64,000 nt of DNA from contig CAKTUZ010000010.1 in assembly GCA_934621605.1 (NCBI GenBank), positions 14,580 to 78,579 on the forward strand, in the 5' to 3' direction. Below are positions 9,001 to 18,000 of the stretch, piece after piece. The position numbers are program-made. The stretch is from an uncultured bacterium (GTDB lineage Bacteria; Vulcanimicrobiota; Xenobia; Xenobiales; Xenobiaceae). Position 1 is the first letter of the stretch; every line of letters begins with the position of its first letter.

Positions 9001-12000
9001 ATTGAGTGGTAGCGCCACCCTGCAAAAACATTACGTAATAGTTGTCAGGGATATTCAAAAGACGGCGGAGTCTGGCTTCGGCGGTTTTAATAATACCATC
9101 GATAACTTTACCGCGATGAGAAAGTTCCATAACGGAAGCGCCAGCGCCGGGATAGCATACCAAATCACGCTGAGCCTCTTTCAAAACGGATAAAGGCAGA
9201 ACGGCCGGACCAGCCGAGAAATTGAATACGCGCTTCTCACATTCACAAGTCATTACTACATGACCCTCCATATAGGTTATTCTAATATTCCCTAAGCCAA
9301 AGGGCCCAAGGGACTACGACAATTAGGACAAAAAAATCAAAATGCGTTTCTGTTATATCGAACAACGCAGGCTCTGAGTTTCGCCTGCTAATCCAAAAAA
9401 GCCTGCCTAATTAAAAGCTTAAATTAGAGACAAAAAAAATTAATCAGCAGGTAATGGAGCTGCATCTTTCAATTTAAGAGCTTCTTCTAAAATGTATTTA
9501 GCAACTGGTGCAGCCACAACTCCTCCACCACCACGATTTTCTACGATCACTGAAACAGCATAATGCGGTCTTCCAGCTGGAGCGTAACCAATAAACCAAG
9601 CATGGGTAGCTCCGTGAGGATTTTCCGCCGATCCGGTTTTTCCAGCTACAGGAACTTCCGGAATCTGTGCCGCCATTCCGGTACCTTCTCTAACCACATT
9701 GCGCATAGATAAAGCGACCAAAGAAGCTGTGTCTGCGGAGATAATACGCTCGCTCTTTCCCTCCGGACATTTCCACACAGTATACATTCCCTTGGCTGAA
9801 GTACGAATCTGGCCGCGCAACAATCTGGGTTCAATATCGATTCCGTCCCTAGCGATAACAGCGGCAATTCTAGCCATATGTAAAGGAGAAACCAAAGTAT
9901 CTGCCTGACCAATAGCCGCTTCGGCTGGAGCAGAAACAGTATCGCTTTCGGGCAAGCGGGCGGGAACGGCTCCGGGGACAAAAGCCATTTTTTGATCTAG
10001 CTTAAATTTTTTCATCCAAGCACGAATTTTAGGCATTTGCATAGCCATTCCCAATCTTCCAAAAGCAGCATTGCAAGAATAAGTTAAAGCTTCATTTAAA
10101 GTAATGTCTCCATGATCGCCCAAACAGCTAATAAAATAATTACCAGCCCAAAATCCTCTATCACAATGGAAAGTCTCATTCCATCTAGCTAAACCTTCTT
10201 CTAAGCACGCAGCCATAATTAAAGGCTTGAAAACTGATCCCGGAGGATAATATCCCTGTTTGGCCCGGTCTAAAAGGCAAGCAGCATCATTATCTCTATT
10301 GATTTTCTCCCAATAACCTTCTGCTCTCAAATTGTTAGGATCATAAGAAGGCAAAGAAACCATAGCCAGAATATCACCATTTTTAATGTCAATTACAACT
10401 GCCGCTCCTCTGTAACCTACCATATAATTAAAAATTTTAGTCTGTAAAGAAACATCTAAAGTAGTAACAACATCATCGCCACTTCTGTCAGGTTTATTCC
10501 ATAAACGCACAGCTTCCCAAGGAGTGCGCGGAACATTGAAGGCTCGAATTTTATCTGCTAAATCATCTTCCAAACCAACGCTACTATATTCGCTACAATT
10601 ATATCCAATAACATTGGCGGCACACTCTCCCAAAGGATAACTGCGCGGCATCATACCTTTATTTTCTGCTTTATAATCTGCCTTAGAAAAAGCCAAAGGA
10701 GACAGATTTCTATCTAAAATACATCCCATCAGCTTCCAATTATCGTTATAGTTGGGATGATTTTTGTGACTACTCAAATTATCTGCATCGAAAATTGCAT
10801 ATCTGACGACATTTATCAAAGGCAAAAGCAACAGTAAAGCAAATACAAAAGCTGCAAAACGAACTCTCTTCTTAGTAGAGAAAATGGCTTCTTTGGCAGA
10901 AATTATCTTATTCTTTATAAGCATCGAGCTGCTTCTACCCCTCATTTTTCACTGTGACGACATGTTCAGGCTGTGTTTTATCGCTATATTCGCTGCTGCT
11001 ACGTAGGCCGGAAGTGTAAACTTCAGCATTAGAGGCGTCAATTGCCCAAATAATTCCTAAAATAATAAAACTGGAAGCCATTGAACTGCCACCTGCGGAA
11101 GCAAAAGGCAAAGTAATACCGGTCATAGGAATCGTCTTAGTATCACCAAGCATTATAATAGCACTTTGCCAAGCGAACAAACTGGCTAAACCGGAAGCCA
11201 ATAGCACGCCAAATTGGTCTTGAGCTCTCATAGCAACAGCGAAGCAACGCTCTACCAAAATAATTATCCCCAGTATTAAAGCAGTACAACCGATAAGTCC
11301 AAAATCTTCGGTAATGGCCACGAAAACAAAATCATTACTTGCTTCAGGTACAATTGAGGAGTAGCCCATACCCAAACCGGCGCCATCAAACCCAGCATTA
11401 TTTAGACAGAACAGAGCAAAACACATTTGATAGCCTTCATTAGCTATATTGGCAAAAGGATCCAGCCAATTGGCAACACGCACTTGCACATGATCGAAAA
11501 ACTTCCAACAAGCATAAGCTCCCCCGGACGAGAGCAAAGCTGTTATGGATACAATATCGATTCGTCCTGTGGCTACAAAAAACATGGCCATAAAAATACC
11601 GAAGAGCAACAACGCAGCTCCCAAATCACGCTGAGCCACCAGCACCAATTCAGCCACAGCCATAGAAAGACCCAAAATTAAAAGTGCTTTACGTGACAAA
11701 CGACTCTCTTTGCCAAAAGTAATACCTAAACTCATCCAAGGGCTAAATTGGCGCAAATAGGCGGCAAAAAATATTATAAAACAGATCTTGGTGAATTCTC
11801 CAGGCTGAAAACTGAATCCACCTATATTGAACCACAGTCTGGCTCCGTTAACCTTTACCCCAAAAAGCATTACCACCAGTTGAGCAATTACACCGCCGGT
11901 TAAAAACAGATACTTATATTCTTCTAATACACGATAATTTCTGAGTAGAAGAACAATAATCAACATCAACAGCAATGATATGGCTACATATATAGCCTGG

Positions 12001-15000: not shown

Positions 15001-18000
15001 GAGCGAGCATTAATTATATCCAAAAGTGCGGCCACAGTGGCAGTTTTACCGCAACCAGCCTGTCCGGTGCAGAGAATCAAGCCTTGGTGATATTTAGTCA
15101 ACTTAGTTAAACTGGCGGGTAATCCCAACTCCTCCAAAGTGGGAATCTTAGAAGGGATCAGCCGAAGTACAATATTTAAGCCGTTTTTCTGCTGGTAAAC
15201 ATTGCCCCGTAATCTCCAGGGCCCTCCCTCTTCGGCAGTACCCAACTCAAGGGCAAAGTCCAGGCTCTTATCTTGCTCAAGCATTACGAGTTGTTCAGCA
15301 CTAAAGAGAGATTTGGCAATGTCCACCACAAAATCGTTAGGTAAAACATAATCTTCGGTCATACGCTGCAGAGAACCGTAAATACGTGCGATCGGAGCTT
15401 CTCCGGAAACCAGATACAAATCTGAAGCGTGACAATCGACCATCATTTTCAAACATTTATTCAAGTAGGACATGGACAAACGACCTCTCTGAGAATGGTT
15501 CTTAAATTTATTTCATTTTTTTCTAAAGAACAACTGCGTAAAACGCTCTATCTTGCTCCTGATGGATAGCAATTCCGCACCTAAAATTACACCTATCTCT
15601 GCATTTAAACAAGACTCAGCCGATTTTCGCCACCTGAATATTGTCTCCTTTAGGGAGTAAGTAGCAGGTAATTTAGGCCCTTTTGTGAACAAAAGTGTTC
15701 CCCAAGCGGAATACGTCACTCCCGAAAGAAAAGTTTATTACAAATTATGATCCATTTTACTCCTCCGCCGGATATCCACATCGGCGGCCCTTTTATTGTC
15801 AATATCCACAGCTTTGCTTTTTGTGTAGGGGCTATGGTAGCCTATTTCCTTACAGTAAACAGACTGCCGGAGAAATATCGAGACCATATTGACAATTTAG
15901 CAATCTGGATGACGGTAGCTGGAATTTTAGGTGCCCGCCTCCTCTTTGCTTTGGTAAATTATCGACAAATACATAGTTTTTGGCAAATCTTTGCTTTTTG
16001 GGAAGGTGGTTTAATTTCTTACGGCGGCTTTTTAGGCGCCATATTGGCGTGGATAGGCTATATTAAAATAAAAAAGCTACCCATGGAAGTCATGTGCCAT
16101 GCCATGGGCCCAGCTGCTCTTTTGGGTTGGGGTTTAGGGCGCTTCGGCTGCTTCTTGGCCTGGAACGGAGAAATAGGCGTTCCCACTTCTATGCCTTGGG
16201 GAATGATCGTGGGAAATGATGTGCCTCGCCATCCTACAATGTTCTATTTGGCCATTACCCACTGTCTATGTGCTTTGCTTATCATAAAATATTCCCCCAA
16301 GTTACGTATCAACGCTGCTGCTTTAAGTTTAGCTGCCTTCGGTTTGGTACGAGCCGTGCTGGATTATTGGCGAGACTATGATCCTTCCTGGCTATATTAC
16401 GGTTCACTGGCCATTTCTGCCCTCTGGTTCATTCTGGGTCTGTGGCTTTGGAAAGTGTTGCCTTTCCCGCAAGAAGAGAGAAAAGCGCAAGGGAGCTCAA
16501 CCGAATGTGACTCTCAAGTATGCAAATCCCAAACAACTGATATTTAAAGCACATTTTTCAGAAGATAGATTAGAACTTAATTTCCAGCAAAAGACCCGCC
16601 TATGCAGCCATCTGACTGCCGTAAGCGGGCCTTGTTGCGTATAACACGGTCGACTTTATCAGAAACTTTTTATTTAGCTCTGTAAACGATACGCCCTTTA
16701 TTCAAGTCGTAAGGGCAAAGCTCTACCGTAACTTTATCGCCGGGCAAGATACGAATCCAGTGCTTACGGATTCTGCCGGAAATGTGAGCCGAAACTTCGT
16801 AGCCGTTCTCTAACTTTACTTTAAAACAAGCATCACGATAGGCTTCTGTCACCACGCCTTCAACTTCGATTTTACCTTTATCAGTTCCGTCTGATGACAA
16901 GTTTATTTCCTCCGCTTTATATTACTGCAACGACGCCGCGAAAATAGGCGGCAGTACTGTACTTAATGCTTCCGCACTCTTTATCCCAAAGCTAAAATCT
17001 TTTACAGCGTCCTTGTTGAACAAGCTCCCTGCTCCTCTGATGGCACAGGAAACACTATGTTAATTTAACAACGCCCATTATGGCAATAATCTACAGCAAA
17101 AGCAAGCTTTTTAGCGATGGCTTTTTTGACTAATTTTGCATATGATAATCAAGAAACATTGTATCTGAGTAAAGTCTTCACGGTCTGCAGCACTAAGGAA
17201 CTAGAAACTAAACCTGCCTTTTTAACTTCGTAGAGCTGAGAGCGAAAATGTTCCGTCATATAATGTGCAGGAACTACATTGCCACGCTGGAAAGGCACGG
17301 CCGGATGCGGCCAAAGCACTTGACATTTACCTTGCTATCGAACTGATTCAATATTCAAAGTTATTGACTAAGCTCAAAGCCGAATTCGGAAAAACGACAC
17401 AAGGTAAATTTCAAATAGAAGCCATTCTTCGGCAATCACAAATCAGCATTAAATTTTCAAAAATCAATAAACAAACACTCAAGATAGTAAATAACATGAT
17501 AAAAAAAATATTTTCAAACACGATCGTTATTTTATTATTAGCTGTCGTCGTTGGCATCTTAACAGGTTTTTTCATCCCGGAAGAGGGAATGAAAAGCATA
17601 TTAGTTGTCAAGCAAATAAGCGGACAAATTATCTTTTTTCTCGTTCCCCTGATCATCATCGGTTTCGTGGCCCCCTCCATTGCATCGCTGAGAGGAAGCG
17701 TTTCACGACTGATAATTTTTGCCTTTTCGCTAGCATACCTATCATCTATAGGTGCGGCATTCTTTGCCATGATGTTGGGATACCAGGTAATTCCTTTGCT
17801 CGACATACAGCCTATCACCGAATCTCTGAGAGAGCTACCTAAAGTTTTATTCAACTTAGAGATTCCTCCCGTGTTGAGCGTAATGTCTGCCCTGCTACTT
17901 TCGATCTTTATCGGTTTGGGATGCTGTTGGACAAAGTCTGATGGCATCACGGATCTGCTTCTACAATTTCGGGAAATTGTGCTGCAACTCGTAAAACGAA

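What the first reader, a model, noticed from the sequence alone, without database searches (positions are those of the whole stretch)
9440..15479. Two tandem PilT-family ATPases apparently co-transcribed with an FHA membrane protein, RodA and PBP2
Five minus-strand genes run PilT-like (14382..15479), PilT-like with N-extension (13083..14363), TM-FHA (12316..13017), SEDS RodA/FtsW (10935..12305), PBP2 (9440..10945). Gaps between them are 18, 65, 10 and -11 nt, and I see no terminator among them. FHA-RodA-PBP is a known theme (actinobacterial fhaB/fipA-rodA-pbpA). Placing type IV pilus retraction ATPases at the head of that elongasome/phospho-signalling operon is unusual. It suggests coupling between pilus retraction motors and lateral cell-wall synthesis, or that these PilT paralogues have been co-opted for a non-pilus role. 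No pilB, pilC, pilM-Q or pilin genes occur in the window.
Basis: partly seen in the sequence, partly recalled or inferred. Interest (0 to 1): 0.7.

Follow-up and report, generated by a model that had tools for sequence, protein, structure and literature searches.

The report
PilT pair heading cell-wall synthase cluster
In an uncultured gut bacterium of the phylum Vulcanimicrobiota, two pilus-retraction motor genes sit directly in front of a phospho-signalling adaptor and a cell-wall synthase pair; one clade keeps this order, but nothing shows the two gene sets work together.

Summary
Five minus-strand genes at 9440-15479 encode PilT-A, PilT-B (about 75 aa N-extension), a membrane-anchored FHA protein, a SEDS glycosyltransferase and a class B PBP. 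The gaps are 18, 65, 10 and -11 nt, and none holds a terminator.

The organism is a gut member of Vulcanimicrobiota (class Xenobia).

- **Core module:** FHA-SEDS-PBP is the widespread FhaB-RodA-PbpA-type module. In 80 metagenome loci, FHA lay upstream in 40 of 54 and a PBP downstream in 45 of 50.
- **PilT adjacency:** a PilT upstream is rare (1 of 35). It is kept throughout one monophyletic clade (PilT-B down to 64% identity, SEDS to 47%, GC 44-69%), with a 0-nt pilT-B/FHA junction in one member.
- **Absence elsewhere:** three other members of the phylum lack it. Orthologous PilT-A/B pairs elsewhere sit next to other genes, once near pilB/pilC.
- **Nature of the PilTs:** both score as PilT-family and keep the catalytic motifs. 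A more conserved PilT-C lies at the window edge.

Best reading: a lineage-specific, probably co-transcribed juxtaposition of two independent modules. It resembles the unexplained pilT-ftsA-ftsZ operon of Clostridium perfringens. Physical coupling is neither shown nor excluded. Interest is modest.

The parts
15474..15746 (-). Intergenic region between the divergent lgt gene and pilT-A; presumed promoter region of the cluster
   Evidence: This 267-nt AT-rich gap precedes the first gene. The sigma-70 consensus scan found no hit inside it. The promoter is therefore inferred, not shown.
14382..15473 (-). pilT-A: PilT-family hexameric ATPase paralogue (363 aa from ATG 15473; the ORF opens at TTG 15479)
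   Evidence: TIGR01420 scores 427 bits against a cutoff of 319. The best solved relatives are PilT of Aquifex (309 bits), with PilU lower at 242 bits. Walker A is GQAGCGKT. The Asp box, Walker B Glu and both His-box histidines are kept. It falls in orthology group A.
13083..14363 (-). pilT-B: PilT-family ATPase paralogue with an N-terminal extension of about 75 aa
   Evidence: TIGR01420 scores 451 bits. The best solved relative is P. aeruginosa PilT 3jvu at 376 bits. It falls in group B, with 83% bootstrap support. The N-terminus has a conserved motif M[SA]FFxx[FL]x[KR][KR][FL], followed by a variable acidic, Pro-rich linker. The first His of the His box is replaced by Ala.
13027..13059 (-). 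Weak stem-loop in the pilT-B/FHA gap, with no U tract after it
   Evidence: In the window the fold is not significant (z -0.8). The same position holds a 17-bp hairpin in close relatives L006 and L011 (z -4.2 and -4.7). Three of 14 pairs show compensatory changes.
12316..13017 (-). FhaB/FipA-like membrane-anchored FHA adaptor (233 aa; the start may instead be TTG 13005)
   Evidence: PF00498 matches residues 161-222 with E 8e-18. NF049868 FhaB_Rv0019c scores 71.8 bits, below its cutoff of 125. The N-terminal SEG[IL]LYFLK[FY]PLL motif plus hydrophobic helix is conserved through the most distant linked loci. The pThr-binding residues GR, SxxH and NG are present (read from the sequence).
10935..12305 (-). 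SEDS-family peptidoglycan glycosyltransferase (RodA/FtsW type, 456 aa)
   Evidence: PF01098 scores 221 bits. It is below both the FtsW cutoff (212 against 337) and the RodA cutoff (180 against 337). Its nearest named homologues outside the phylum are actinobacterial and Chloroflexota proteins.
9440..10945 (-). Class B penicillin-binding protein, PbpA type (501 aa, or 494 aa from 10924)
   Evidence: The transpeptidase domain scores 189 bits. The best solved relatives are 4mnr, 4jbf and M. tuberculosis PbpA 3un7 and 3lo7. The SVFK, SCN and KTG motifs are present (sequence). It is below the MrdA equivalog cutoff (258 against 455).
9329..9388 (-). Terminator-like zone after the PBP gene (GC hairpin GCAGGC..GCCUGC, second hairpin, then AUUUUGAUUUUUUU)
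   Evidence: Read from the sequence and the fold. The stricter scan did not flag it, so this is a weak inference.
8147..9271 (-). serC (phosphoserine aminotransferase), a conserved downstream neighbour of the PBP
   Evidence: NF003764 scores 485 bits. It follows the PBP in every linked locus and also in the PilT-less locus L027.
4..549 (-). N-terminal 182 aa of a third PilT (PilT-C), running off the window start
   Evidence: tblastn hit. It is 82-88% identical to the first gene of a PilT-C/PilT-D-serS pair in L025, L030, L032 and L106. The group C protein of L030 scores 410 bits to Geobacter PilT and carries AIRNIIREGK.

Best explanation
Two independent modules have been joined head to tail in one clade of Vulcanimicrobiota and are probably transcribed together.

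**Module 1: pilT-A and pilT-B.** This is an old tandem pair of catalytically competent PilT-family ATPases. They are accessory paralogues of a more conserved primary PilT-C. They most likely power or modulate type IV pilus retraction.

**Module 2: the peptidoglycan synthase.** It has three parts.
- An FhaB/FipA-like adaptor: a membrane anchor plus an FHA domain with intact phosphothreonine-binding residues.
- A SEDS glycosyltransferase.
- A PbpA-type transpeptidase.

As in Actinobacteria, its activity or localisation would be controlled through FHA binding to a Thr-phosphorylated partner. The kinase is encoded elsewhere.

**Transcription.** It would start in the lgt/pilT-A intergenic region and end in the U-rich hairpin zone after the PBP gene.

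**Consequence of the juxtaposition.** At most it gives co-expression of pilus retraction and wall synthesis. That is comparable to pilT-ftsA-ftsZ in Clostridium perfringens. It is not a shared machine.

**What is shown:** gene identities, gene order, phylogenetic distribution and motif integrity.

**What is inferred:** co-transcription, the pilus role of PilT-A/B, and the phospho-regulation.
For: **Identities.**

**Independence of the modules.**
- In 80 related SEDS loci from metagenomes, FHA lies upstream in 40 of 54, a PBP lies downstream in 45 of 50, and a PilT lies upstream in only 1 of 35.
- Other members of the phylum have FHA-SEDS-PBP without the pair: L025 and L027.
- The PilT-A/B pair, with gaps of 4-18 nt and the same PilT-B N-terminal motif, occurs without FHA-SEDS-PBP in three loci. 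In L033 it is 7 kb from pilB-pilC. In L034 it is followed by an AmiC-like amidase and UppP. In L115 it sits among unrelated genes.

**Single origin and retention.**
- The A and B copies from all linked loci form clades with 99% and 100% bootstrap support.
- The order PilT-A, PilT-B, FHA, SEDS, PBP, SerC is kept from GC 44% to 69%, while the genes beyond lgt and serC differ.

**Co-transcription.**
- No terminator lies in the gaps.
- L028 has a 0-nt pilT-B/FHA junction.
- U tracts appear only after the PBP.

**Pilus context.** The only cultured member of the phylum moves by type IV pili (PMC9758169).

**Precedent.** pilT-ftsA-ftsZ is co-transcribed in C. perfringens (PMC6958937).
Against: - The juxtaposition has survived divergence to 47% SEDS identity and 64% PilT-B identity, with tight spacing. 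Conserved operons often reflect a functional link.
- The PilT-B clade has lost the first His of the His box. Both A and B have S in place of R in the AIRNLIRE-like motif. They may therefore not be ordinary retraction motors.
- A second cell-wall association of the same pair exists in L034 (amidase plus UppP).
- No transcript data exist.
- The pilT-B/FHA gap is the longest in the cluster and carries a hairpin in close relatives. An internal promoter or attenuation point is therefore possible.
- The pilus assembly genes of this genome were not seen.
Confidence: 0.6

Rival explanations
1. True functional coupling. PilT-A/B and the FHA-SEDS-PbpA module form one system. One version is that the membrane-anchored FHA adaptor recruits or regulates the PilT paralogues, tying pilus retraction to local peptidoglycan synthesis. 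PilT-B might be tethered through its N-terminal amphipathic motif and disordered linker. The other version is that the ATPases have been co-opted for a non-pilus role in envelope growth.
For: - The order is kept through a deep clade with tight gaps, including a 0-nt junction.
- PilT-B has a conserved N-terminal motif with a hydrophobic moment of 0.4-0.65, plus a long variable linker.
- The His box is altered in PilT-B and the AIRNLIRE-like motif is altered in A and B.
- The same pair sits before an AmiC-like amidase and UppP in L034.
- An FHA protein ends the pilB-pilC cluster in L033.
- There is an independent pilT-ftsA-ftsZ operon in Clostridium.
- A separate, more canonical PilT-C is available for ordinary retraction.
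Against: - The N-extension and the pair exist equally in lineages where FHA-SEDS-PBP is elsewhere.
- The conserved N-terminal motif has no invariant Thr that could serve as an FHA ligand.
- FHA-SEDS-PBP works without PilT in nearly all lineages.
- serC and lgt are conserved in the block just as well.
- A natural strain (L035) carries a 1.7-kb insertion in pilT-A while the rest of the cluster is intact.
- No interaction data exist.
Confidence: 0.17
2. Incidental neighbours that are transcribed separately. The FHA-SEDS-PBP genes have their own promoter at the 3' end of pilT-B or in the 65-77 nt gap. The hairpin there ends or stabilises the pilT transcript. The adjacency persists only because this chromosomal block (lgt to serC) rearranges slowly.
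For: - The pilT-B/FHA gap is the longest in the cluster in most loci (46-102 nt, against 18 or less and 37 or less for the other gaps).
- Close relatives have a strong conserved hairpin there (z -4.2 and -4.7).
- Unrelated genes (serC, lgt) are equally conserved in the block, and serC follows the PBP even in the PilT-less L027.
- L035 tolerates an insertion in pilT-A. That would be polar if there were no downstream promoter.
Against: - The hairpin has no U tract and is weak in the window itself (z -0.8) and in Bruticola, L030 and L032.
- L028 has a 0-nt gap that leaves no room for a promoter outside pilT-B.
- No promoter-like consensus was found in the gap, although promoter rules for this phylum are unknown.
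Confidence: 0.23

Closest known systems
Actinobacterial fhaA-fhaB(fipA)-pstP-rodA-pbpA-pknA-pknB cell-wall and phospho-signalling cluster (M. tuberculosis Rv0014c-Rv0020c)
   Same: Both have a membrane-anchored single-FHA protein directly before a SEDS gene and a short PbpA-type class B PBP. The window's PBP is closest to solved actinobacterial PbpA structures. The nearest named SEDS homologues outside the phylum are actinobacterial or from Chloroflexota. The FHA domain gives its best NCBIfam hit to FhaB_Rv0019c. The cluster is described in PMC6554272 and PMC3989709.
   Different: There is no PstP phosphatase, no PknA/PknB kinase and no FhaA in the window. The FHA protein is below the FhaB equivalog cutoff. 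Two PilT ATPases sit where fhaA would be. The host is a diderm Vulcanimicrobiota, not an actinobacterium.
Clostridium perfringens pilT-ftsA-ftsZ operon
   Same: A type IV pilus retraction ATPase is the first gene of an operon whose other genes build the cell envelope or divisome. The synteny is conserved among related species only, and its meaning is unexplained (PMC6958937).
   Different: The partners differ: FtsA and FtsZ there, FHA-SEDS-PBP here. There it is a single pilT, here a pair. Co-transcription is shown by RNA-seq there and only inferred here. The phylum is unrelated, so the origin is independent.
Tandem or multiple PilT-family paralogues (pilT-pilU of Pseudomonas and Neisseria; PilT1-4 of Geobacter; solved PilT and PilU structures)
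   Same: The genes are adjacent PilT-family paralogues with hexameric ATPase motifs. A genome with four or more PilT-like genes has precedents (my own knowledge). Both window proteins score highest to PilT structures.
   Different: Neither copy is PilU-like, since PilU scores lower. PilT-B carries an N-terminal motif plus a disordered linker and lacks the first His-box histidine. The pair is followed by wall-synthesis genes.

Membership tests
PilT/PilU family type IVa pilus ATPase (TIGR01420) | Whole-protein HMM score above the curated cutoff (319.1 bits) | tested here: met
   PilT-A scores 427.4 bits and PilT-B 450.6 bits.
PilT/PilU family type IVa pilus ATPase (TIGR01420) | Walker A Lys, Asp box, Walker B Glu and His box of secretion ATPases | tested here: met
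   All are present in PilT-A. PilT-B keeps every motif except the first His of the His box (TGA instead of TGH).
PilT proper (retraction ATPase, as opposed to PilU) | AIRNLIRE motif near the C-terminus (the definition is from my own knowledge of the PilT literature) | tested here: inconclusive
   PilT-A has SISNLIRDGK and PilT-B has GFSNIIREGK, so the motif is kept except for Arg to Ser. PilT-C of relatives has AIRNIIREGK. Both score higher to PilT than to PilU structures.
PilT proper (retraction ATPase, as opposed to PilU) | A type IV pilus assembly system (pilB, pilC, pilM-Q, pilins) in the same genome | not testable with these tools
   None is in the 64-kb window, and the rest of the genome is not available. 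Indirect evidence: the orthologous pair in L033 is 7 kb from pilB and pilC, and the phylum's only isolate has type IV pili.
FhaB/FipA (NF049868, Rv0019c equivalog) | HMM score above the curated cutoff (125 bits) | tested here: not met
   The score is 71.8 bits and only the FHA part aligns (residues 139-223).
FhaB/FipA (NF049868, Rv0019c equivalog) | Architecture: N-terminal membrane segment, linker, one C-terminal FHA domain with pThr-binding residues | tested here: met
   A hydrophobic segment spans about residues 13-35 and the FHA domain spans 161-222. GR, S-x-x-H and NG are present. The N-terminal motif is conserved in all linked loci.
FhaB/FipA (NF049868, Rv0019c equivalog) | Genomic linkage to SEDS-PbpA and to PstP and PknA/PknB | tested here: inconclusive
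   Linkage to SEDS and PBP is met. No phosphatase or kinase is in the window or in the relatives' 10-kb flanks.
RodA (TIGR02210) or FtsW (TIGR02614) equivalogs within SEDS | Score above the equivalog cutoff (about 337 bits each) | tested here: not met
   RodA scores 180 bits and FtsW 212 bits. Only the general SEDS Pfam model is passed (221 bits against 26). Solved FtsW and RodA structures score alike.
PBP2/MrdA (TIGR03423) | Score above the equivalog cutoff (455 bits), with the long N-terminal pedestal | tested here: not met
   The score is 258 bits and only the C-terminal two thirds align. The protein is 501 aa, like PbpA, and its best solved relatives are PbpA-type.
Class B PBP transpeptidase (PF00905) | Transpeptidase domain with SxxK, SxN and KTG motifs | tested here: met
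   PF00905 scores 189 bits. SVFK, SCN and KTGS are read in the translation.
Operon (single transcription unit pilT-A to PBP) | Read-through transcription with no internal terminator or promoter | not testable with these tools
   Only indirect evidence exists: short gaps, no terminator-like site in any gap, a 0-nt junction in L028, and U-rich hairpins only after the PBP.

The most novel reading that the evidence does not exclude
The PilT-A/PilT-B pair and the FHA-SEDS-PbpA genes form one functional unit. A membrane-anchored phosphothreonine reader would couple specialised, possibly membrane-tethered PilT paralogues to a dedicated peptidoglycan synthase. That would link pilus retraction or surface sensing to local wall growth or repair. 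This would be one instance of a recurrent and unexplained pilT/cell-envelope linkage seen independently three times: in Clostridium (pilT-ftsA-ftsZ), in Eremiobacteria (pilT-pilT-amiC-uppP, L034) and in this clade.
Probability: 0.13. Interest if true: 0.75.

Novelty: new variant of a known kind. Interest (0 to 1): 0.38.

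Why it matters
If the linkage is functional, it would give a second, independent case beside Clostridium pilT-ftsA-ftsZ. In both, a pilus retraction motor is wired to the machinery that builds the cell envelope. It would also point to Ser/Thr phospho-signalling (the FHA adaptor) as the connecting logic. As things stand, the main value is descriptive. The work defines the FhaB-RodA-PbpA-type module outside Actinobacteria. 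It sorts the PilT genes of a barely studied phylum into five groups (A to E). It also flags a clade-specific gene order that gut metatranscriptomes could test cheaply.

Tried and rejected
- **Single-protein SEDS scan of species genomes.** It reached only close relatives plus unrelated Bacteroidota and Alphaproteobacteria SEDS loci, so it was of little use for distant synteny.
- **Rfam scan of the window.** No RNA families were found.
- **Sigma-70 and terminator consensus scans.** Hits were at chance level and none fell in the gaps. Promoter rules for this phylum are unknown.
- **A sigma-54-like TGG..GC motif seen by eye in the pilT-B/FHA gap.** The spacing is off by one, so it was rejected.
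- **Intein hypothesis for the split pilT-A in L035.** Rejected, because the two halves are in different frames and a 9-bp duplication flanks the insert. Neither ORF inside the insert has a Pfam hit.
- **PilU assignment for either copy.** Rejected, because PilU structures score lower than PilT structures.
- **PilT-A/B as a duplicate of the PilT-C/D pair.** Rejected, because A and B group together rather than with C and D.
- **Search for pilins by prepilin motif and weak Pfam hits for the unknown ORFs.** Nothing pilus-related was found.
- **Literature search for pilT, FHA domain and rodA together.** It found no paper.
- **Taxon names of L028-L033 and L115.** They could not be obtained.

Full report
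**1. Observation**

The gaps are 18, 65, 10 and -11 nt.

Profile searches confirm the families.
- Both ATPases exceed the curated PilT/PilU cutoff. TIGR01420 scores are 427 and 451 bits against a cutoff of 319.
- The 233-aa protein has one N-terminal hydrophobic segment and a C-terminal FHA domain.
- The next gene is a SEDS protein (PF01098).
- The last gene is a class B PBP with a transpeptidase domain.

The consensus scan finds terminator-like sites only at chance frequency (10 against 9.3 expected), and none lies in an intergenic gap.

A third PilT copy lies at 4-549 (minus strand) and is cut by the window edge.

Pfam scans of essentially all ORFs of 150 aa or more, plus a prepilin-motif search, found no pilB, pilC, pilM-Q, pilin, Hanks kinase or PP2C in the window.

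Three start codons probably need small corrections.
- pilT-A probably starts at ATG 15473.
- The FHA gene may start at TTG 13005, behind a GGAGG that is conserved in all relatives.
- The PBP may start at 10924.

**2. Source organism**

Identical or near-identical contigs come from gut metagenomes. The best named relative is Candidatus Bruticola, which belongs to Vulcanimicrobiota (Eremiobacterota/WPS-2), class Xenobia. The window has 44% GC.

**3. The FHA-SEDS-PBP part**

- The PBP is short (about 500 aa). It is below the MrdA equivalog cutoff. Its closest solved relatives are actinobacterial PbpA-type proteins, including M. tuberculosis PbpA.
- The SEDS protein is below both the RodA and FtsW equivalog cutoffs and matches solved FtsW and RodA equally well. 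Its nearest named homologues outside the phylum are from Actinobacteria and Chloroflexota.
- The FHA protein gives its best NCBIfam hit to FhaB/FipA (Rv0019c) but is below the cutoff, at 71.8 against 125 bits. It shares the membrane-anchor-plus-FHA architecture and keeps the GR, SxxH and NG phosphothreonine-binding residues.
- A metagenome scan with a SEDS alignment returned 80 loci. Where enough flank was present, FHA lay within 2 kb upstream in 40 of 54, and a PBP followed in 45 of 50.

This is therefore the widespread FhaB-RodA-PbpA-type module known from Actinobacteria (PMC6554272, PMC3989709). Here it lacks the adjacent phosphatase and kinases.

**4. The PilT part**

Both proteins are closer to solved PilT than to PilU.

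A neighbour-joining tree of 23 PilT-like genes from the window and related loci resolves five groups: A, B, C, D and E.
- Group C corresponds to the truncated copy at the window edge. It is the most conserved group: the fragment at the window edge is 82-88% identical to its orthologues in other members of the phylum. Its L030 member has the highest similarity to characterised PilTs (410 bits) and the canonical AIRNIIREGK motif. It is the likely primary retraction ATPase.
- Group D is the partner of group C in relatives. It has lost the Walker B Glu and the His box.
- PilT-A and PilT-B keep the Walker A Lys, the Asp box, the Walker B Glu and the invariant second His.
- PilT-B has lost the first His-box histidine. 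Both A and B have Ser where the AIRNLIRE motif has Arg.
- PilT-B orthologues carry a conserved N-terminal motif, M[SA]FFxx[FL]x[KR][KR][FL]. A variable acidic, Pro-rich linker of 40-100 residues follows it. The motif has a high helical hydrophobic moment. It could be a membrane-binding or docking helix, but that is only an inference.

**5. Distribution of the juxtaposition**

The order PilT-A, PilT-B, FHA, SEDS, PBP, SerC, with lgt upstream, is found in the following loci.
- All gut Xenobiaceae relatives: L001-L014.
- L028 and L029: PilT-B 76% and SEDS 62% identical, GC 58%.
- L030 and L031: 70% and 52%, GC 67%.
- L032 and L035: 64% and 47%, GC 68-69%.

In the gut relatives the whole neighbourhood is collinear, so those loci say little on their own. 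In the more distant loci the genes beyond lgt and serC differ, so this is more than general collinearity.

In L028 the pilT-B stop codon abuts the FHA start codon, a 0-nt gap.

The A and B copies from all linked loci are monophyletic, with 99% and 100% bootstrap support. This argues for a single origin.

The arrangement is absent elsewhere in the phylum.
- L025 (a Vulcanimicrobiota bacterium) has SLT-x-FHA-SEDS-PBP. The PilT-C/D-serS pair lies 3 kb downstream.
- L027 has FHA-SEDS-PBP-SerC behind transporter genes.
- L106 resembles L025.

Of the 35 metagenome SEDS loci with at least 4 kb of upstream sequence, only L035 has a PilT within 3 kb.

Conversely, the A/B pair itself is older and more widespread. 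It always sits at 4-18 nt spacing, or 192 nt in L034, and its neighbours vary.
- L033: pilB and pilC lie 7 kb away, in a cluster that ends with an FHA protein.
- L034: an AMIN-amidase and UppP follow the pair.
- L115: only unrelated genes surround it.

**6. Transcription unit**

No transcript data are available. The indirect evidence favours one unit running from pilT-A to the PBP.
- The gaps are short.
- No gap holds a U-tract terminator.
- A GC hairpin followed by U tracts appears only after the PBP stop, at 9329-9388.

Some points argue for caution.
- The pilT-B/FHA gap is the longest in the cluster.
- In close relatives it holds a strong hairpin (z -4.2 and -4.7), with some compensatory changes. 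The hairpin has no U tract and is weak in the window itself (z -0.8).
- L035 is a strain-level relative of L032 with a 1.7-kb insertion in pilT-A, flanked by a 9-bp duplication. The downstream genes are intact. This shows that pilT-A is dispensable there. It also hints that downstream expression may not depend wholly on the pilT-A promoter.

**7. Mechanism**

The best-supported reading (confidence about 0.6) is a lineage-specific juxtaposition of two independent modules, which are probably co-transcribed.
- The first module is an accessory pair of PilT retraction ATPases. The phylum's only isolate moves by type IV pili (PMC9758169).
- The second module is a phospho-regulated SEDS/PbpA peptidoglycan synthase with its FhaB-like adaptor.

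Co-expression may coordinate surface motility with envelope growth. The same has been suggested, without explanation, for the RNA-seq-verified pilT-ftsA-ftsZ operon of C. perfringens (PMC6958937).

There are two rivals.
- Genuine physical or regulatory coupling through the FHA adaptor, or co-option of the ATPases (confidence about 0.17).
- Incidental neighbours that are transcribed separately (confidence about 0.23).

The recurrence of pilT next to envelope genes in three independent lineages keeps the first rival alive. That count includes L034's amidase and UppP. Three facts weigh against it.
- The PilT-B extension and the pair occur equally where FHA-SEDS-PBP is elsewhere.
- No invariant Thr is present in the conserved N-terminal motif.
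- The unrelated serC and lgt are conserved in the block equally well.

**8. Novelty and score**

No paper in the library mentions pilT, FHA domain and rodA together.

The components and both modules are known kinds. The new element is a clade-wide gene order that puts a PilT pair at the head of an FhaB-RodA-PbpA-type cluster in an almost unstudied phylum. I rate this a new variant of a known kind, with interest 0.38.

Noticed in passing
window 4-549 (-); L030 18498-20715; L032 18609-20818; L025 15415-17677: There is a second PilT pair. PilT-C is very conserved: the fragment at the window edge is 82-88% identical to its orthologues in other members of the phylum. The L030 copy scores 410 bits to Geobacter PilT, and the group carries the motif AIRNIIREGK. 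In relatives it is followed by PilT-D, which keeps Walker A but has lost the Walker B Glu and the His box and is probably a pseudo-ATPase. serS comes next. This pair stays within 3-9 kb downstream of FHA-SEDS-PBP, even in loci that lack the upstream pair.
   Followed up: partly
window 13027-13059 (-); L006 about 9941-9978; L011 about 9248-9284: A stem-loop lies in the pilT-B/FHA intergenic gap. It has 17 bp and z -4.2 to -4.7 in close relatives, with 3 of 14 pairs showing compensatory changes, and no U tract follows it. It is weak in the window itself (z -0.8) and absent in Bruticola, L030 and L032. It may be an RNA stability or attenuation element.
   Followed up: partly
L035 5959-7686 (compared with L032 9553-9561): A 1.7-kb insertion with a 9-bp target duplication and imperfect terminal inverted repeats interrupts pilT-A. 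The strain is otherwise 96-99% identical to L032. The ORFs inside the insert have no Pfam hit. It is probably an unclassified mobile element and a natural pilT-A knockout.
   Followed up: partly
window 13083-14363 (-), residues 1-75; alignment A2: PilT-B orthologues share an N-terminal motif M[SA]FFxx[FL]x[KR][KR][FL] with a high amphipathic moment. A variable acidic, Pro- and Ala-rich linker of 40-100 aa follows. The motif is also present in lineages where the pair is not next to FHA-SEDS-PBP. I know of no described PilT with such a tether.
   Followed up: partly
window 20806-22524 (+), 22619-25258 (+), 25286-26815 (+): Two more large FHA-domain proteins (572 aa with an N-terminal FHA; 879 aa with C-terminal FHA) are followed by a GH3, NagZ-like glycosidase. 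They lie 5-10 kb upstream of the cluster. Relatives L003 and L006 also carry a large FHA protein at the equivalent position.
   Followed up: no
L034 8768-13763: In a MAG labelled Eremiobacteraeota, the orthologous PilT-A/PilT-B pair is followed on the same strand by an AMIN-domain N-acetylmuramoyl-L-alanine amidase (AmiC-like) and by BacA/UppP. This is a second, different cell-wall neighbour for the same pair.
   Followed up: partly
L033 12722-20087 (-): In a 7.6-Mb contig of unknown taxon, a pilB (MshEN plus T2SSE) and pilC (T2SSF) cluster runs through several unannotated small genes and ends with a 292-aa FHA-domain protein. It lies 1.4 kb from the PilT-A/B pair, on the opposite strand.
   Followed up: no
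window 12316-13017 (-), start region 13003-13020: In two relatives (L006, L013) the ATG at the window's annotated FHA start is CTG. All relatives keep GGAGG followed 4-5 nt later by TTG or GTG. The true start in the window is therefore probably TTG 13005.
   Followed up: yes
window 37762-40317 (-), 36837-37550 (-), 28343-29287 (-), 61349-62122 (-): Other envelope- or motility-flavoured genes are in the window: an 851-aa protein with Roadblock/LC7 (MglB-like) domains, a SPOR-domain protein, a CsgG-like lipoprotein and undecaprenyl diphosphate synthase.
   Followed up: no
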